Assembly: GCA_028712595.1 (NCBI GenBank)
Contig: JAQTPS010000003.1
Coordinates: 1-52,276 of the forward strand
DNA length: 52,276 nt
Direction: 5' to 3'
Source: Minisyncoccota bacterium
GTDB taxonomy: Bacteria > Patescibacteriota > Minisyncoccia > Phycocordibacterales > UBA1550
Part shown: in pieces, positions 14,206 to 24,249 of the stretch
Position numbering within the stretch: position 1 is the first letter of the stretch
How the letters are laid out: each line of letters opens with the position of its first letter
Position numbers and translations under genes: made by a program
The notes under the pieces: generated by a model
Told to the model about the DNA's origin: nothing
Seen by the model: the letters and a program-made list of their open reading frames with translations, nothing else
Databases searched by the model: none

Positions 14206-16836
14206 ATGCGTAATTTCCTCACCAAAAGTACCATAATTCTCCTAGGAGTTGTTTTGCTTTTGGGTGGGGCTCTGCCTGTATTCGCGCAGTTGGTCCTAAG
14301 TAGCAGTAACGACCAAGCGCATACTGGCCCTGGCACCTCAACCTTGACTACAAACCCATCGTCAACTTCGGGCGTTTCGCATGCATTTGATGACGCCGCT
14401 CAAGCAAGCGCAATAGAAAGCACTAAGGGGCCTAGGGGGTCAATTTCAAATCAGGATTTTTATGATCCAGGAACCAACGGAGAACCACCCGTAAATACAG
14501 CTAACTCAATAGAAGACCCGGATGACAATGTTGCCCTTCGTGGCTTGGGTACTATGTGTTCTGCCAACATTTTAGCTTACGGTTTGTCTGCGGGGGCACT
14601 AGCTGGTTTAAATGCTACAGACCTTGGTCTTGTTGGGGCTACCGCCGGAACGGTCGCTCCGGGGACCGAGGCGACAATCCTTGGTACTGGAGGTACTACA
14701 GGGATAGGAAACGTTGCGGCGTTGGTTGAGGGAGGAGCTGGAAGTGTTCTTGACGCAGGACTAACCGTTGCTGCTACGGCGGCTAAGTTTGCTTTTGGCA
14801 AAGCTATGTATTTCACATGTGCTCCAATTGCTATTTACTGGCTAGCATACACACCAGCATCTTTTCTTCTTAGTTTAGCGGTAAGACTTTTTGATTTCTC
14901 CATTTCCCTTAGCATGGATAATGGTTACCTCACTATGCCTTTCATTCAGGATATGTGGACAACCATAAGAGATCTCTCTAATATGTTGTTTATTTTTGTC
15001 CTAGTTTACACAGGAATTAGGACAATGCTTGGAGCAGAGGGTGACTGGAAAAGATCCGTGTTTAAAGTGATAATTATTGCCCTTTTGCTTAATTTTAGTC
15101 TCTTCTTCGCGCAAGTAGCAATTGATGCCGGGAATACTTTTGGAACATGGGTATATAGCAGTATGGGAGCAGACCCAACCGGAGCAGGACAGACAAGAAA
15201 TCTGCACGGTGCTTTTGTTAAATCATTCAAGTTGGGGAATTTCGTACCTTCCGACCAAGGACTTAATACAAACTTCTGGTCGGGGTTTGGTGTAGTCAAT
15301 TCTATATTTTTGTTCCTCCTTGTCGCAATATTAAACATCGTTGCTGCGTGGGTATTTTTGCAAATTGCATTCATTTTTATCGGACGATTGCTGGCTTTTT
15401 GGACATTAATGATTTTAGCCCCAGCTGCTTTCGTTGCAAATACTCTTCCAAAGTTTGAAGGATATTTCAGCGAGTGGTTGAATACTCTTGTGAAGCAGGC
15501 TTCCTTGGCTCCACTCTTCATGATTATGCTCTACATAATCATGAAAATTATGGGGCCAGTACAACAACTCATGAAAAGCACGCCTGCCGCGGATGACATG
15601 TCCTTAGCAGGAACAATTGTCATGCCTCTACTTGGAGCAATCACAGTTTTATTTGCACTCACAAAAGCAAAAGACTTTGCAGTAGACTGGGCTGGGGCTT
15701 TTGGAGAAATAGGGAAGAAGATCGGTGGTACAGTAATGGGTCTTGCTGGCAACACGGCACTTGGAGGAGCCGGGTTTGTTGGACGCAGGGTTGTTGGCGG
15801 AGGAGCCGATGCACTACTAAAAACAGGGGCACTTCAAAAGGTTGCATCTAGCCAAAGCAAATTGCTTCAATATAGTGGTATTACGAGTCTTGCAGGAGGA
15901 AGCGTGGCGGCAGCAGACAAGGCTAGAACAGGGAGTTGGGATGCTCGTAATTCGTCATTGATGAACAACCAGTATGTAAAAAGTGGTTTGAAAGAGGCAA
16001 GGGTTGATTTCGGAAAAGCTGGTGGAAGGGGTGGATACATGCAGGAGGAGAAGGACAATATTAAGGAGGCGAAGGACAAAGGAAAATTGCTGGGAGTTAC
16101 AGACAAAGAAAAAGGAGACAAAGAACAAGAAATCAGGGTTGACGTGGAGAAAGAATTGCAAAAAGCAATGAGTAAAAATCTTGAGAGCGAAGAGAAGCTT
16201 AGGGACGCCGACAAGAAACTACTCGAAGCCAGAGAAAAGACAATAGAGGCAGAAAAGAGTCTCTTGAAGAAAGAGAAAGAGGTGGAAGAGCTTAAAGAAA
16301 AAAATTCTAGAGAAGCGCCGGAGCTTGCCAGAAGGCTCAAAGAAGCCCTGGATAAGGGTGATCAGGAAACCATGGAAGAAATAAGTGGATTCTTAAGGGT
16401 CCGGCACGACGACATGATGAAGGGGAATCAAAATCTCGGCGAACTAAGAGGTAATTTTGAGTCTGCAAGGAAAAAAGAAGCGGTTTTTGGGGTCAATAAA
16501 GAAACTCTTTTGAAAGAATCTACCTTAACGCGCGAGAAGCTAGAAAAACTGAGGAGCCCTAAGGCAGTAGAGAATAGGATAAAAGAATGGGTTAATTCTG
16601 AAAACTTGAGACGCCAGGTGATAGCGGCAGGAGCTACAGCTTCAAGGCATTTTATTGTTTCAAGGTCTTCTCGTATAAAATTTATCAGACAGGCAATTAA
16701 AGATAAAACTTCTCAAGAGAAAGACAAGGAAACGGTAGATAAGGCAATGGAAATTTTGGCCCAGCAAGCAGAAAAAAAGAAACGAGAAGAGGAAGCTTCT
16801 CAGGGGACGGCTTCCAGCGGAGACAAGGGCAATTAA
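14206..16836 (+). CDS. Large polytopic membrane protein with a Lys/Glu-rich coiled-coil tail; VirB6/TrbL-like by topology and context
   Basis: Signal peptide, Gly/Ala/Thr-rich region, several TM helices, then a ~300-aa charged C-terminus. It is the first gene of the T4SS-like block. The pyrimidine box TTTCCACCCC lies upstream. Confidence 0.6.
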   Translation: MRNFLTKSTIILLGVVLLLGGALPVFAQLVLSSSNDQAHTGPGTSTLTTNPSSTSGVSHAFDDAAQASAIESTKGPRGSISNQDFYDPGTNGEPPVNTANSIEDPDDNVALRGLGTMCSANILAYGLSAGALAGLNATDLGLVGATAGTVAPGTEATILGTGGTTGIGNVAALVEGGAGSVLDAGLTVAATAAKFAFGKAMYFTCAPIAIYWLAYTPASFLLSLAVRLFDFSISLSMDNGYLTMPFIQDMWTTIRDLSNMLFIFVLVYTGIRTMLGAEGDWKRSVFKVIIIALLLNFSLFFAQVAIDAGNTFGTWVYSSMGADPTGAGQTRNLHGAFVKSFKLGNFVPSDQGLNTNFWSGFGVVNSIFLFLLVAILNIVAAWVFLQIAFIFIGRLLAFWTLMILAPAAFVANTLPKFEGYFSEWLNTLVKQASLAPLFMIMLYIIMKIMGPVQQLMKSTPAADDMSLAGTIVMPLLGAITVLFALTKAKDFAVDWAGAFGEIGKKIGGTVMGLAGNTALGGAGFVGRRVVGGGADALLKTGALQKVASSQSKLLQYSGITSLAGGSVAAADKARTGSWDARNSSLMNNQYVKSGLKEARVDFGKAGGRGGYMQEEKDNIKEAKDKGKLLGVTDKEKGDKEQEIRVDVEKELQKAMSKNLESEEKLRDADKKLLEAREKTIEAEKSLLKKEKEVEELKEKNSREAPELARRLKEALDKGDQETMEEISGFLRVRHDDMMKGNQNLGELRGNFESARKKEAVFGVNKETLLKESTLTREKLEKLRSPKAVENRIKEWVNSENLRRQVIAAGATASRHFIVSRSSRIKFIRQAIKDKTSQEKDKETVDKAMEILAQQAEKKKREEEASQGTASSGDKGN

Positions 16837-16847
16837 AAATATCGAAC

Positions 16848-22897: not shown

Positions 22898-22995
22898 AAT
22901 CGTTGTAGGCATAAAAATTCTGCTACCTGCGCGTTGGTGCTAAGTTCTTTTAGGAAATCTTTGTGCTTAGTGGTGGCTTCCTGTATAATTACACT

Positions 22996-24249
22996 ATGAT
23001 TCGCAAAATTATTATCGTGATAGCTGTTGTTGCTGTTGCTGGATTGGGTGTTTTTTATTATTTAAATAAGGGCTCCACTGCTCCAAGTGTAGCCAATACC
23101 GGATCGTTCGGAAACAACACCTCAACAGCGGTAGACAACAACAGCGATGCAACAACTACCGAGATTGCAATCCCTACGCAACCAGCTTTTGTTCCAAGCT
23201 CTGGGCAACCATTTCCCAGACTTTATGAACTGCACAGGGAACCGACTGCAGGAGTTGCATTTGTTGAGTCGGGGAGTGGGAAGAAATATGTCGCCTCGGC
23301 TCGATATATAGAACGTGGAGTTGGTAACATTTTTGATACAGACCTTTCTACTTATGTTGAGTCGCGCGTCGTGAACGAAACACGTTCTCGGTTAAGCGAG
23401 GCCTTGTGGGGACAGAACGGGAAGAGTGTGGTGGTTCGATCTCTCGTTGGTTCTACAATAAAAACCAGTATTCTGAATTTAAGCAACCCAACGAAGCTTC
23501 TTGCGCCCGACGGAACTAAGAATTTTATGAAGGTGGAAGAAATTTCTCTTCCGGACTCAATTCCTTTTATGGCAACAGCTGAAGATGGAACAAATAAACT
23601 TTTTTACTTAAAAAACAACAAAGATGGTGCGCAAGGAACAACCATAACTTATAAAAACACCAGCGCTACCAAAATCTTTACCTCCTTGTTTACCGAATGG
23701 CTTCCGCAATTTCCCAACCAAAACACCGTAGCTCTTACCACAAAGGCTTCCGCAAATATTCCAGGCGGGTTGTTCTTCCTAGACACCAGAACTAGGTCTT
23801 TTAACAAAATCATTGGGAGCATAAACGGACTTACAACACTAGTAAGCCCAGACAATAAAAGGGTTCTTTATTCCGAGACAAAAGATGGCTCACCACAATT
23901 ATCTGTTTATAACATAGCAACCAAAGAAAAGCGCGATCTCTCAATCCAAACATTGGCGGAAAAATGTGTATGGGGTCGTAAACAAACTACTGTTGTTTAT
24001 TGCGCTGTACCTAAAACAATCCCTGCTGGAGCATATCCAGATGCTTGGTACCAAGGAATTGTTTCTCTTGCTGATAGTATTTGGAAAATCGACACCCAAA
24101 ATACCGATACCGAAGAACTTACTTCTTCCACAGATTTGAATGGGGTTAATCTTGATATGACAAATCTTTCCCTCAACTCAAATGACTCATATCTTTTGTT
24201 TACGAACAAAATAACCGGTACTCCTTGGGTGTTTAGGGTTTCAAAATAA
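22996..24249 (+). CDS. N-terminally anchored protein with TolB-like beta-propeller features (417 aa)
   Basis: Trimmed to ATG 22996, 6 nt after TATAAT 22984-22989. TM anchor IIIVIAVVAVAGLGVFYY. Repeated motifs of the DNKRVLYSETKDGSPQLSVYN type. Confidence 0.7.
   Translation: MIRKIIIVIAVVAVAGLGVFYYLNKGSTAPSVANTGSFGNNTSTAVDNNSDATTTEIAIPTQPAFVPSSGQPFPRLYELHREPTAGVAFVESGSGKKYVASARYIERGVGNIFDTDLSTYVESRVVNETRSRLSEALWGQNGKSVVVRSLVGSTIKTSILNLSNPTKLLAPDGTKNFMKVEEISLPDSIPFMATAEDGTNKLFYLKNNKDGAQGTTITYKNTSATKIFTSLFTEWLPQFPNQNTVALTTKASANIPGGLFFLDTRTRSFNKIIGSINGLTTLVSPDNKRVLYSETKDGSPQLSVYNIATKEKRDLSIQTLAEKCVWGRKQTTVVYCAVPKTIPAGAYPDAWYQGIVSLADSIWKIDTQNTDTEELTSSTDLNGVNLDMTNLSLNSNDSYLLFTNKITGTPWVFRVSK

What the first reader, a model, noticed from the sequence alone, without database searches (positions are those of the whole stretch)
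14206..24249. Eight-gene type-IV-secretion-like block without relaxase or coupling protein, adjacent to the origin and transcribed toward it
The co-directional, tightly spaced genes are: a VirB6/TrbL-like polytopic protein with a long coiled-coil tail (14206), an acidic protein (16848), a PrgI/VirB3-like protein (17600), a VirB4-N-domain-like protein (18046), the VirB4 ATPase (18862; Walker A GSGKSY, Walker B LLVVDEAW), a secreted protein (20744), a VirB2-like pilin fused to M23 (21776), and an anchored beta-propeller-like protein (22996). No VirD4-type coupling ATPase, relaxase, VirB11 or integrase is present in the window. That argues against a conventional conjugative element and for a chromosomal, possibly DNA-uptake or host-contact, machine. 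The block ends about 1.7 kb from rpmH/oriC. If the origin is at 26-27.7 kb, the block is oriented head-on to replication, which is unusual for a large, presumably expressed operon.
Basis: partly seen in the sequence, partly recalled or inferred. Interest (0 to 1): 0.65.

Follow-up and report, generated by a model that had tools for sequence, protein, structure and literature searches.

The report
Chromosomal Patescibacteria type IV secretion locus
This is a real eight-gene type IV secretion gene block in the chromosome of an ultrasmall Paceibacteria (Yonathbacteria-like) bacterium. It is a new example of a non-conjugative system already described in 2023 and 2025, so it is mostly ordinary, apart from a fast-changing pilin/cell-wall-enzyme fusion gene.

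Summary
Eight co-directional, tightly spaced genes at 14206-24249 encode:
- a weakly VirB6/TrbL-like polytopic protein;
- an acidic protein with no known family;
- PrgI/VirB3;
- a TrsD-like detached VirB4 N-domain;
- a VirB4 ATPase of the Gram-positive (MPF-FATA) type;
- a secreted protein with three Ig-like domains;
- a VirB2-like pilin fused to an M23 peptidase;
- a membrane-anchored beta-propeller.

No relaxase, coupling protein, VirB11 or integrase is found in the window, which is the entire contig. The same gene order, at the same chromosomal site, recurs across 80 Paceibacteria species loci: ksgA, the block, then convergent yidC-yidD-rnpA-rpmH, then dnaA-dnaN. The block points toward dnaA in all 55 loci that hold both genes. 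This rules out an ordinary ICE.

It is the Patescibacteria-clade T4SS already published by Wang et al. 2023 and Quinonero-Coronel et al. 2025, who also reported the missing relaxase and the closeness to dnaA. Those authors find coupling-protein homologues far from virB4 in most genomes, so absence of one from this genome is unproven.

Three points appear new:
- the head-on orientation is conserved;
- the pilin domain carries a rapidly swapped C-terminal domain, often a cell-wall enzyme;
- the two conserved surface proteins now have fold assignments.

The transported substrate is unknown.

The parts
14206..16836 (+). Extended VirB6/TrbL-like polytopic membrane protein (876 aa). It has a signal peptide, a low-complexity ectodomain of about 180 aa, about 7 TM segments (208-485) and a K/E-rich C-terminal tail of about 270 residues within a roughly 390-residue hydrophilic C-terminal region.
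   Evidence: Pfam TrbL E=5.6e-5, below the gathering score, covering model positions 5-210 of 215. Orthologues were found by tblastn in 61 of 80 loci at the same position. Only 2 of 40 aligned orthologues reach TrbL at E<=1e-3, and there is no PDB sequence match. The assignment is therefore weak.
16848..17594 (+). Acidic protein (248 aa, pI 4.45) with no signal peptide or TM segment. It has a conserved N-terminal domain of about 105 aa, a Pro/Glu-rich tail and a C-terminal DPYRE motif. Its family is unknown.
   Evidence: Composition is. About 58 homologous ORFs occur in relatives at this position, sometimes as a tandem pair, and conservation is confined to the N-terminal ~105 aa. There is no Pfam, NCBIfam or PDB match, and no relation to the nearby DUF5663 protein.
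17600..18043 (+). PrgI/VirB3-like small membrane protein (147 aa) with a hydrophobic hairpin at residues 27-62.
   Evidence: Pfam PrgI 5.9e-7, 30.4 bits against a cut-off of 27. Present in 74 of 80 loci.
18046..18705 (+). TrsD-like protein (219 aa), a free-standing homologue of the VirB4 N-terminal domain.
   Evidence: NCBIfam TrsD 7.8e-7, VirB4_plasma positions 101-216 at 2e-8, and CD1110 VirB4 positions 2-83 at 5.7e-5. The adjacent VirB4 covers CD1110 positions 181-729. An orthologue carries the precomputed Pfam hit PF26593 TraC-like. Present in 77 of 80 loci at 46-73% identity.
18706..18861 (+). Unusually long trsD-virB4 spacer. As RNA its first 81 nt fold into a closed four-way junction. 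Its role is unknown.
   Evidence: MFE -50 kcal/mol, z=-4.97. Relatives have only 11-31 nt here. No tRNA or Rfam match, and a single copy in the window.
18862..20685 (+). VirB4 ATPase (607 aa) of the MPF-FATA (Gram-positive conjugation) type, the motor of the system.
   Evidence: NCBIfam conju_CD1110 1.2e-111, 374 bits against a cut-off of 325. Pfam P-loop_TraG 1.9e-26 and CagE_TrbE_VirB 1.6e-4. PDB 4AG5 1.6e-40 and TrwK 6.5e-6. Walker A and B motifs were read directly. 70-88% identity to 80 Patescibacteria loci.
20744..21760 (+). Secreted or anchored protein (338 aa) with an N-terminal signal/anchor helix and three tandem Ig/FnIII-like beta-sandwich domains.
   Evidence: AlphaFold2 pLDDT 90.8. 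Foldseek hits are to multi-Ig proteins such as Hoc, SiiE, SGBP-B and titin FnIII, at E of 1e-9 to 1e-6 with low global TM scores, which is typical of beads on a string. Present in 76 of 80 loci at only 25-45% identity.
21776..22897 (+). VirB2-like T4SS pilin domain fused to an M23 (LytM-type) peptidoglycan endopeptidase (residues 223-313) through a linker of about 100 aa. The pilin part has a signal peptide and two hydrophobic helices (59-77 and 99-117). It is the only pilin-like domain in the window.
   Evidence: Pfam T4SS_pilin 4.9e-11 and Peptidase_M23 2.3e-20. NCBIfam Mbov_0395 pilin-like 5.9e-5. HxxxD (H224-D228) and HLH motifs are present. A six-frame HMM scan finds no second pilin domain. 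At this position 57 of 71 orthologues have PF18895, but their C-terminal domains differ. Pilin-M23 fusions were seen in only two other places: P0242, and the L081 gene cut off at the contig end, which keeps only the last pilin helix plus M23.
22996..24249 (+). Membrane-anchored beta-propeller protein (417 aa) with an N-terminal TM helix, a disordered linker of about 40 aa and a TolB/tricorn/WD40-like propeller.
   Evidence: AlphaFold2 pLDDT 83.9. Foldseek hits are tricorn 1.7e-10, TolB 6e-10 and WD40 proteins. Present in 67 of 80 loci. 42 columns are invariant among 59 homologues.
24266..24306 (.). Bidirectional intrinsic terminator hairpin between the convergent T4SS block and the yidC operon.
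   Evidence: 17-nt perfectly complementary arms with a 7-nt gap and T-runs on both sides.
24327..25935 (-). rpmH-rnpA-yidD-yidC operon, the conserved marker of the left origin flank. It is context, not part of the machine.
   Evidence: Pfam 60KD_IMP and Ribonuclease_P. rpmH (25801-25935) and yidD (25194-25424) were read from the sequence. yidD is confirmed by homologues and by PF01809 in a relative.
26180..28870 (+). dnaA, a DnaA-box-rich spacer (27539-27769, the probable oriC) and dnaN. These are context.
   Evidence: Pfam hits. Four DnaA boxes at 27550-27714 and one at 26088. A 40-fold box enrichment in the same spacer across 51 relatives.

Best explanation
The block is the chromosomal, vertically inherited Patescibacteria-clade type IV secretion system in its Paceibacteria arrangement. 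It sits in a Yonathbacteria-like genome from a landfill metagenome and descends from the conjugation machinery of monoderm bacteria (MPF-FATA).

Shown:
- The gene content.
- A fixed position between ksgA and the yidC-rnpA-rpmH / dnaA-dnaN origin region.
- No mobile-element hallmarks.
- A conserved orientation toward oriC.

Inferred architecture:
- A VirB4 hexamer is docked to the membrane by PrgI/VirB3 and the detached TrsD N-domain.
- It energises a channel formed by the extended VirB6-like protein.
- The VirB2-like hairpin protein places an active M23 endopeptidase on the outer face of the membrane, in the role played by VirB1/PrgK-type wall hydrolases. The enzyme opens peptidoglycan at the machine, and possibly in the host cell.
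- The three-Ig-domain protein and the anchored beta-propeller form the wall-spanning or surface-exposed part. This replaces the VirB7/9/10 core of diderm systems.

Inferred function, by homology to the Saccharibacteria system that Tn-seq showed to be essential for epibiotic growth: a contact-dependent conduit between the ultrasmall cell and its host cell, not a plasmid or ICE conjugation apparatus. The substrate and the direction of transport are unknown.
For: - VirB4 scores above NCBIfam's equivalog cut-off for the CD1110 (CTn2, MPF-FATA) family. TrsD, PrgI and T4SS_pilin are also matched.
- The 80 best species loci are all Patescibacteria MAGs, mostly labelled Yonath-, Nomura-, Taylor-, Kaiser- or Zambryski-bacteria or Paceibacterota; many bear 'Saccharibacteria' database labels, which I take to be mislabels. 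Yonathbacteria are the closest, at 84-88% VirB4 identity.
- Synteny is conserved as ksgA, (0-3 extra genes), virB6, acid, prgI, trsD, virB4, Ig protein, pilin-X, propeller, then convergent yidC and rnpA, then dnaA and dnaN. Counts out of 80 loci are trsD 77, Ig protein 76, prgI 74, propeller 67, yidC 63, virB6 61 and dnaA 57. Most misses are at contig ends.
- No relaxase, T4CP, VirB11, integrase or tRNA was found, and no flanking direct repeats. GC content is like that of the flanks.
- Published work describes this clade of 2,425 VirB4 proteins nested in MPF-FATA, its TrsD/PrgI/VirB6/VirB2 partners, the missing relaxase, and the neighbouring dnaA, dnaN, rnpA, ksgA and rpmH genes (PMC12102498). 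It also reports that the T4SS genes are essential in Southlakia epibionticum, while comEC and the distant t4cp are dispensable (PMC10633639 and PMC12857230).
- The M23 catalytic motifs are intact.
Against: - No functional data exist for any Paceibacteria T4SS. Essentiality is extrapolated from another class, Saccharimonadia, whose locus has a different layout (pilin arrays, and peptidase and lysozyme genes).
- The VirB6 assignment is below threshold, with only 2 of 40 orthologues hitting TrbL.
- No VirB8-like component was identified.
- The only pilin-like domain in the contig carries a 250-aa globular extension, so a canonical pilus made of it is doubtful.
- There is no expression evidence; the only runs found are DNA assemblies.
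- The window is about 7% of a genome of roughly 0.6-0.8 Mb. A coupling protein or relaxase elsewhere cannot be excluded.
Confidence: 0.85

Rival explanations
1. The system is a DNA-import machine, like ComB of Helicobacter or Ced of Sulfolobales. It takes up host or environmental DNA for nucleotides or recombination, which would explain why it works without a relaxase or coupling protein.
For: - Relaxase and T4CP are absent from the locus.
- There are weak P-loop matches to CedB (3.3e-8) and CedD.
- DNA-repair and recombination genes lie nearby: uvrD directly upstream, a ComM-like helicase at 5735-7270, and ruvC and ruvB downstream.
- The published survey notes T4SS loci next to comF, recG and radA in class ABY1, and lists DNA import as a possibility.
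Against: - The CedB and CedD matches cover only 70-100 residues of the ATPase core, hundreds of bits below the cut-offs. The best model by far is the conjugative CD1110 VirB4.
- The neighbouring repair genes are ordinary origin-proximal housekeeping genes, conserved whether or not a T4SS is present.
- In Southlakia, competence runs through type IV pili and ComEC. Losing ComEC abolishes transformation but not growth, while the T4SS stays essential (PMC12857230).
Confidence: 0.12
2. The block is a functional conjugation apparatus. Its relaxase, oriT and coupling protein are encoded elsewhere in the genome, acting in trans, or are too divergent to recognise.
For: - VirB4 is closest to conjugative ICE models.
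- T4CP homologues exist in most Patescibacteria genomes, far from virB4, and t4cp commonly lies with the relaxase rather than with virB4.
- The window is only one contig of the genome.
Against: - Only 109 relaxases were found in 3,035 Patescibacteria genomes, and 15 of them lie near virB4.
- The block has stayed at the same chromosomal site next to oriC across a whole class, with a 70-88% identical VirB4. That pattern fits vertical descent, not a mobile element.
- The distant t4cp is dispensable in Southlakia while the T4SS is essential.
Confidence: 0.06
3. The block is a decaying remnant of an integrated conjugative element that has lost its mobility genes and no longer functions.
For: Mobility genes are missing. 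Several components diverge fast: the Ig protein is 25-45% identical and the acidic protein 20-38%.
Against: - All eight reading frames are intact and tightly packed.
- The VirB4 Walker motifs and the M23 catalytic motifs are intact.
- Gene order is kept in dozens of species with reduced genomes of 0.6-0.8 Mb, where useless DNA is lost quickly.
- Fast divergence is limited to the extracellular or disordered parts.
Confidence: 0.02

Closest known systems
Patescibacteria-clade T4SS (Quinonero-Coronel et al. 2025, Microb Genom 11:001409, PMC12102498), Paceibacteria arrangement
   Same: - VirB4 is related to MPF-FATA.
- TrsD and PrgI/VirB3 lie immediately upstream, with a VirB6-like protein and a PF18895 VirB2-like pilin nearby.
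- There is no relaxase and no T4CP next to virB4.
- The locus is chromosomal and sits next to dnaA, dnaN, rnpA, rpmH and ksgA.
- A relative used here (L002, Yonathbacteria RIFCSPLOWO2_01_FULL_47_33b, 88% VirB4 identity) is in their dataset as VirB4-positive.
   Different: Nothing differs in kind. Three points were not found in that paper's text:
- the block always points toward oriC ('head-on' and 'orientation' are absent from the paper);
- the pilin domain is fused to variable C-terminal domains, often cell-wall enzymes (no such fusion is mentioned);
- the conserved Ig-repeat and beta-propeller partners.
Southlakia epibionticum ML1 T4SS (SEML1_0006-0019; Wang et al. 2023, Cell 186:4803, PMC10633639)
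   Same: - The subunit set is Gram-positive-like and includes predicted pilins.
- No coupling protein or relaxase is recognisable in the cluster.
- Peptidoglycan-active enzymes are encoded immediately downstream of virB4.
- The cluster is chromosomal.
   Different: - It belongs to a different class, Saccharimonadia.
- It has an array of six divergent stand-alone pilins. This window has a single pilin domain fused to an enzyme.
- Its essentiality was shown by Tn-seq, whereas nothing has been tested for Paceibacteria.
Gram-positive conjugative T4SS of the MPF-FATA class (CTn2/CD1110, pCF10 Prg/Pcf, pGO1 Trs, pIP501)
   Same: - The VirB4 family (CD1110 equivalog score passed), PrgI, TrsD and a VirB6-like channel protein are shared.
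- A membrane-anchored multidomain wall hydrolase is present. From my own knowledge, PrgK of pCF10 carries LytM/M23, SLT and CHAP domains.
- There is no VirB7/9/10 outer-membrane core.
   Different: - There is no relaxase, T4CP (PcfC/TcpA type), oriT or integrase here.
- No VirB8-like PrgL or surface adhesin PrgB was detected.
- A VirB2-like pilin domain is present, which Gram-positive systems lack.
- The locus is fixed in the chromosome next to oriC rather than carried on a mobile element.
T4SSs that work without a coupling protein (Bordetella Ptl, Brucella VirB, Helicobacter ComB)
   Same: There is no VirD4 in the locus and no relaxase. The function is something other than conjugation.
   Different: Those are diderm MPF-T systems with a VirB7/9/10 core, and Ptl and Brucella VirB also have VirB11. 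Their substrates are known (pertussis toxin through the periplasm, effectors, or DNA import). There is no sequence affinity beyond VirB4.

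Membership tests
Patescibacteria-clade T4SS (MPF-FATA-derived) | VirB4 ATPase of the MPF-FATA lineage that clusters with Patescibacteria VirB4 proteins | tested here: met
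   NCBIfam conju_CD1110 scores 374 bits against a cut-off of 325. The 80 best genome loci are all Patescibacteria MAGs at 70-88% identity. No formal tree was built.
Patescibacteria-clade T4SS (MPF-FATA-derived) | TrsD-like protein (VirB4 N-domain homologue) encoded next to virB4 | tested here: met
   The TrsD and VirB4 N-terminal models are matched at 1e-5 to 1e-8, below the curated cut-offs. An orthologue carries PF26593 TraC-like. The gene lies directly upstream of virB4 in 77 of 80 loci.
Patescibacteria-clade T4SS (MPF-FATA-derived) | PrgI/VirB3 homologue associated with virB4 | tested here: met
   Pfam PrgI scores 30.4 bits against a cut-off of 27. Present in 74 of 80 loci.
Patescibacteria-clade T4SS (MPF-FATA-derived) | VirB6-like polytopic channel protein | tested here: inconclusive
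   TrbL scores 23.5 bits, below the 25.9 cut-off, although it covers nearly the whole model. Only 2 of 40 orthologues reach E<=1e-3. There is no PDB sequence match. Topology and position fit.
Patescibacteria-clade T4SS (MPF-FATA-derived) | VirB2-like pilin (PF18895/PF04956) near virB4 | tested here: met
   PF18895 scores 43 bits against a cut-off of 26.6. 57 of 71 orthologues at this position also hit it.
Patescibacteria-clade T4SS (MPF-FATA-derived) | No relaxase in the cluster, and a chromosomal housekeeping context (dnaA, dnaN, rnpA, rpmH, ksgA) | tested here: met
   Pfam scans of the whole contig. Synteny.
Conjugative element (ICE or plasmid) with an MPF-FATA T4SS | A relaxase (MOB family) and an oriT | tested here: not met
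   No relaxase domain occurs in any scanned ORF of the 52-kb contig. The rest of the genome was not available.
Conjugative element (ICE or plasmid) with an MPF-FATA T4SS | A type IV coupling protein (VirD4, PcfC or TcpA) | tested here: not met
   None is present in the contig. Genome-wide presence cannot be tested here. The published survey suggests a distant homologue is likely.
Conjugative element (ICE or plasmid) with an MPF-FATA T4SS | Integration module with an integrase and att repeats, often at a tRNA, and patchy distribution among related genomes | tested here: not met
   There is no integrase and no tRNA. Only short, imperfect repeats were found. The locus is at the same site in 55 or more species.
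DNA-uptake T4SS (ComB or Ced type) | ATPase and channel proteins of the ComB or Ced families | tested here: not met
   CedB scores 32.6 bits against a cut-off of 700 and CedD 16 bits against 600. Both matches cover the P-loop only. No other Ced or ComB component was found.
DNA-uptake T4SS (ComB or Ced type) | DNA import that depends on the system | not testable with these tools
   This needs uptake assays in a cultured strain.
VirB1/PrgK-type T4SS cell-wall hydrolase (functional class) | A peptidoglycan-cleaving domain, encoded in the T4SS operon and placed outside the membrane | tested here: met
   The M23 domain has intact HxxxD and HxH motifs and lies C-terminal to the second hydrophobic helix of the pilin hairpin. 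Enzyme activity and topology are inferred, not measured.

The most novel reading that the evidence does not exclude
The gene at the fixed 'pilin' position may not encode a structural pilin. It may be a modular carrier: a conserved VirB2-like membrane or pilus hairpin that presents a rapidly exchanged C-terminal domain. In about a third of the sampled species that domain is a recognisable wall-active enzyme. The enzyme may be aimed at the host cell's peptidoglycan rather than the bacterium's own, which would make it a T4SS-borne, polymorphic-toxin-like determinant of host range in Paceibacteria.

Supporting observations:
- Among 71 orthologues, the Pfam hits on the C-terminal side include NlpC/P60 (9), YkuD (4), VanY (4), Amidase_5 (3), SLT_2 (2), and Amidase_2, M15_4, SLT and M23 (one each). 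Many others have no Pfam match.
- 68 C-terminal regions fall into 34 sequence clusters.
- Relatives with 84-88% identical VirB4 carry unrelated C-terminal domains.
- The closest genome keeps M23 but at only 33% identity, while the neighbouring propeller protein is 69% identical.
- Two assemblies of that 583-kb genome both break inside this gene.
Probability: 0.25. Interest if true: 0.65.

Novelty: new member of a known kind. Interest (0 to 1): 0.3.

Why it matters
Patescibacteria make up a large share of bacterial diversity and appear to live on other cells. Their T4SS is one of the few machines shown genetically to be essential for that lifestyle, although only in Saccharibacteria, and what it transports is unknown.

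This locus adds a clean Paceibacteria example with fold-level annotation of every conserved partner. It also raises two testable points:
- A large operon is kept head-on to replication, within about 3.3 kb of oriC, in all 55 sampled species loci that hold both virB4 and dnaA.
- The pilin-like gene is a hotspot of domain swapping, often involving cell-wall enzymes, which could tie the machine to host specificity.

None of this changes the published picture, so the finding is mainly confirmatory.

Tried and rejected
- **GC skew for the origin.** Cumulative skew rises across the whole window with no minimum at 26-28 kb. Skews at four-fold degenerate sites, split by gene strand and side, show no replichore signal. 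The method is uninformative at this scale, so the origin call rests on DnaA boxes and synteny.
- **Sequence searches of solved structures.** TrsD gave nothing, with a best E of 0.83 to an antibody chain. The acidic-protein profile gave nothing meaningful, and neither did the VirB6 profile.
- **Acidic protein versus the nearby DUF5663 protein.** hhalign found no relation, with probability 0.5%. A Pfam scan of 58 orthologues returned only three scattered single-member hits to unrelated families.
- **VirB8-like identity for the 338-aa secreted protein.** Rejected. It consists of three Ig-like sandwiches.
- **Recent duplication of the window's other M23 gene (7333-8310) as the source of the fused M23.** Rejected. 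Identity is 34% over the catalytic core only.
- **Extra genes that relatives carry between ksgA and virB6.** They have no homologue anywhere in the window.
- **ICE borders.** No convincing flanking direct repeats and no tRNA genes.
- **Known RNAs.** No Rfam family matches in the window or in the structured spacer.
- **Coupling protein in Yonathbacteria genomes.** The stored copy of the published supplementary table is truncated before those genomes.
- **Expression evidence.** Only three DNA assemblies from one landfill study hold or accompany the sequence, and there is no RNA.

Full report
**What is there**

The + strand between 14206 and 24249 carries eight intact, co-directional ORFs separated by 2-156 nt. 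No convincing terminator lies inside the block. A perfect 17-bp-arm hairpin with T-runs on both sides lies at 24266-24306, between the last gene and the convergent yidC.

**Gene by gene**

1. 14206-16836 (876 aa). It has a signal peptide, a low-complexity ectodomain, about seven hydrophobic segments, and a K/E-rich C-terminal tail of about 270 residues within a roughly 390-residue hydrophilic C-terminal region.
   - Pfam TrbL/VirB6 matches almost end to end (model positions 5-210 of 215), but at 23.5 bits, just under the 25.9 cut-off.
   - Only 2 of 40 orthologues reach E<=1e-3, and a family profile finds no solved structure.
   - I call it VirB6-like on weak evidence. Coiled-coil character was not tested with a predictor. 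Charged tails are common among orthologues.
2. 16848-17594 (248 aa, pI 4.45). It has no TM segment and no family in Pfam, NCBIfam or the PDB. Relatives keep a conserved N-terminal domain of about 105 aa at this position, sometimes duplicated in tandem.
3. 17600-18043. PrgI/VirB3, above the Pfam cut-off.
4. 18046-18705. It matches TrsD and the extreme N-terminal parts of two VirB4 models. The next gene covers positions 181-729 of the same CD1110 model.
5. 18862-20685. VirB4.
   - It scores 374 bits on NCBIfam's CD1110 equivalog, against a cut-off of 325.
   - It matches the Thermoanaerobacter VirB4 structure 4AG5 at 1.6e-40 and TrwK at 6.5e-6.
   - Walker A (GSGKSY) and Walker B (LLVVDEAW) are present.
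6. 20744-21760. The AlphaFold2 model has pLDDT 90.8 and shows a signal/anchor helix followed by three tandem Ig/FnIII-like sandwiches. Foldseek returns only generic multi-Ig proteins.
7. 21776-22897. A PF18895 T4SS pilin domain (4.9e-11) is followed, after a linker of about 100 residues, by an M23 peptidase (2.3e-20). The pilin domain has a signal peptide and two hydrophobic helices. The HxxxD and HxH metal-binding motifs of M23 are intact.
8. 22996-24249. The model (pLDDT 83.9) shows an N-terminal TM helix, a disordered linker and a beta-propeller. The closest structures are tricorn, TolB and WD40 proteins.

**What is absent**

Pfam scans of 48 ORFs, nearly all of the plausible non-nested ORFs of 100 aa or more, found no VirD4-type coupling protein, relaxase, VirB11 or integrase. 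ARAGORN found no tRNA. Only short imperfect repeats flank the block. The one T2SSE-family ATPase (37826-39511, - strand) is a PilB-type type IV pilus ATPase with an MshEN domain.

The protein database lists 52,276 bp as the longest contig for the window's own proteins. The window is therefore the whole contig, and 'just outside the window' cannot be inspected.

**Where it comes from**

The 80 best genome loci for VirB4 are all Patescibacteria MAGs. Candidatus Yonathbacteria and Paceibacterota are the closest, at 84-88% amino-acid identity. Yonathbacteria are filed under class Paceibacteria, with genomes of 0.72-0.81 Mb. The DNA itself occurs in a landfill metagenome, and no RNA data hold it.

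**Context and origin**

Upstream lie uvrD/pcrA and ksgA. Downstream, on the opposite strand, lie yidC, yidD, rnpA and rpmH, followed by dnaA and dnaN on the + strand.

Four DnaA boxes cluster at 27550-27714, in the dnaA-dnaN spacer, and one lies upstream of dnaA. Across 51 relatives, DnaA-box density is:
- 11.5 per kb in the dnaA-dnaN spacer;
- 2.75 per kb in the 400 nt upstream of dnaA;
- 0.28 per kb elsewhere.

This places oriC here with good confidence. GC skew is uninformative, both as a sliding window and at four-fold degenerate sites split by strand and side.

The geometry is conserved. virB4 and dnaA are co-oriented in 55 of 55 loci. yidC is opposed in 54 of 55. The distance from the end of virB4 to the start of dnaA is 4.8-8.2 kb.

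Head-on orientation is not peculiar to the T4SS. Of the 21 genes left of the origin in the window, 16 share it, including uvrD, ksgA and comM.

**Conservation**

tblastn and ORF maps show the same order in species after species: ksgA, (0-3 extra single-TM genes), virB6, acidic protein, prgI, trsD, virB4, Ig protein, pilin-X, propeller, then convergent yidC and rnpA, then dnaA and dnaN. Counts out of 80 loci, where many misses are contig ends, are:
- trsD 77
- Ig protein 76
- prgI 74
- propeller 67
- yidC 63
- virB6 61
- dnaA 57

The extra genes that relatives carry between ksgA and virB6 have no homologue in this window.

The cytoplasmic and membrane core is well conserved: VirB4 70-88%, TrsD 46-73% and PrgI 35-63%. 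The exposed parts diverge fast: the Ig protein 25-45% and the propeller 24-52%, or 69% in the closest genome.

This pattern indicates an old, vertically inherited and functional chromosomal system. It does not fit an ICE or a decaying remnant.

**What is already known**

This is the system described by Quinonero-Coronel et al. 2025 (PMC12102498). They report:
- 2,425 VirB4 proteins forming a Patescibacteria clade nested in MPF-FATA;
- associated TrsD, PrgI/VirB3, VirB6 and PF18895/PF04956 pilins;
- only 109 relaxases in 3,035 genomes;
- neighbours dnaA, dnaN, rnpA, ksgA and rpmH, from which they propose a gene-dosage effect.

They also report 5,713 VirD4-like homologues in 2,918 genomes, of which only 148 lie near virB4. 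A distant coupling-protein gene in this genome is therefore likely, and its absence from the contig proves little.

Wang et al. 2023 (PMC10633639) showed by Tn-seq that the Southlakia T4SS cluster is essential for epibiotic growth. They noted the pilins and the lack of recognisable coupling and relaxase proteins. According to the 2025 survey, the trsD, prgI and virB6 homologues, the pilin array and the peptidase and lysozyme genes downstream of virB4 are among the essential genes. The 2025 nomenclature review restates this and points out that comEC is dispensable.

**What may be new**

1. The conserved head-on orientation is not discussed in the 2025 paper.
2. The pilin position is a domain-swap hotspot.
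   - 57 of 71 orthologues have the PF18895 domain.
   - The C-terminal partner differs: NlpC/P60 (9), YkuD (4), VanY (4), Amidase_5 (3), SLT_2 (2), and Amidase_2, M15_4, SLT and M23 (one each), plus Ig-like domains. Many others have no Pfam match.
   - 68 C-terminal regions fall into 34 BLAST clusters, and the window's M23 is a singleton among them.
   - Yonathbacteria with 84-88% identical VirB4 have unrelated C-terminal domains.
   - A search of 5.8 billion proteins found one other full-length pilin-M23 fusion (P0242, 45% identity), encoded in a prgI, TraC-like, virB4 block.
   - The closest genome, a 583-kb contig, also has M23 at this site. Its identity is only 33%, while the adjacent propeller is 69% identical. 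Both independent assemblies of that genome end inside this gene.
   - The fused M23 is not a recent copy of the window's LysM-M23 gene.
   - A six-frame HMM scan shows that this is the only pilin-like domain in the contig.
   - I found no mention of such fusions in the paper's text, although its 'VirB1 homologues associated with VirB4 in Paceibacteria' may be the same genes.
3. The trsD-virB4 spacer is 156 nt here, against 11-31 nt in close relatives. As RNA its first 81 nt fold into a closed four-way junction (z=-4.97). It has no tRNA or Rfam match.

**How it most likely works**

Shown: the gene content, the domain identities above, the intact catalytic motifs, and the conserved chromosomal position and orientation.

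Inferred from established T4SS biology:
- VirB4 hexamers dock on the membrane through VirB3/PrgI, here with help from the detached TrsD N-domain.
- They power assembly and transport through a VirB6-type channel.
- The pilin-hairpin protein puts a wall-cutting enzyme on the outer face, in the role of VirB1/PrgK.
- The Ig-repeat protein and the anchored propeller build the wall-spanning or exposed part of a monoderm machine that has no VirB7/9/10.

Inferred by homology to Saccharibacteria: the machine serves contact-dependent exchange with a host cell.

Unknown: the substrate and its direction. The rivals are DNA import, conjugation with factors supplied in trans, and a defunct remnant. They are scored separately, and the first cannot be excluded.

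**Verdict**

This is a new member of a known kind, of modest interest, with one sub-feature worth following up: the polymorphic pilin-enzyme fusion.

Noticed in passing
window 18706-18861: The trsD-virB4 spacer is 156 nt, against 11-31 nt in close relatives. As RNA its first 81 nt fold into a closed four-way junction (MFE -50 kcal/mol, z=-4.97). No tRNA or Rfam match, and a single copy in the window.
   Followed up: partly
window 21776-22897 and orthologues in L001-L080: The conserved VirB2-like pilin domain carries a different C-terminal domain in different species. These include NlpC/P60, YkuD, VanY, amidases, SLT, M23, Ig-like domains and many unknowns. There are 34 sequence clusters among 68 proteins.
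   Followed up: yes
L081 1-715 / L082 1-697: Two independent assemblies (583,215 and 583,179 bp) of the closest relative's probably complete genome both end inside the pilin-M23 gene. This may reflect strain-level variation that breaks the assembly graph at this gene.
   Followed up: partly
window 5297-7270: A DksA/TraR-type zinc-finger protein (5297-5728) sits directly upstream of a ComM/YifB-like Mg-chelatase-family AAA+ protein (5735-7270), about 7 kb upstream of the T4SS block. In L020 the comM-like gene and a LysM-M23 gene take the place of ksgA and virB6.
   Followed up: no
window 7333-8310 (-): A second, stand-alone peptidoglycan hydrolase with two LysM domains and M23. It is the only minus-strand gene in the 4-24 kb stretch, and its core is 34% identical to the pilin-fused M23.
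   Followed up: partly
window 37826-39511 (-): A PilB/GspE-type ATPase (T2SSE plus MshEN domain), followed at 39.5-45 kb by several small unannotated membrane or secreted ORFs. This is probably part of a type IV pilus locus, separate from the T4SS.
   Followed up: no
window 1-3900: No confident genes. There are only TTG/GTG-start ORFs of 100-190 aa with odd Cys/Arg/His-rich translations and no Pfam hits. There is also no Rfam or tRNA match. The region could be degraded or non-coding DNA at the contig end.
   Followed up: no
window 25127-25197: An inverted repeat with 30-nt arms (87% complementary, 11-nt gap) lies in the yidC-yidD intergenic region and runs 4 nt into the 3' end of yidD. It may be a terminator or a regulatory hairpin within the rpmH-rnpA-yidD-yidC operon.
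   Followed up: no
window 34884-36266 and 45103-46794: Two predicted surface proteins. One is a 460-aa secreted protein with long Gly-rich (GGxGG) repeats. The other is a 563-aa DUF11-repeat protein with a C-terminal TM anchor.
   Followed up: no
window 9547-11191: A 438-aa acidic, Pro/Glu-rich protein with no family match is followed by a 104-aa DUF5663 protein, just upstream of uvrD. Neither is related to the acidic T4SS-block protein.
   Followed up: partly
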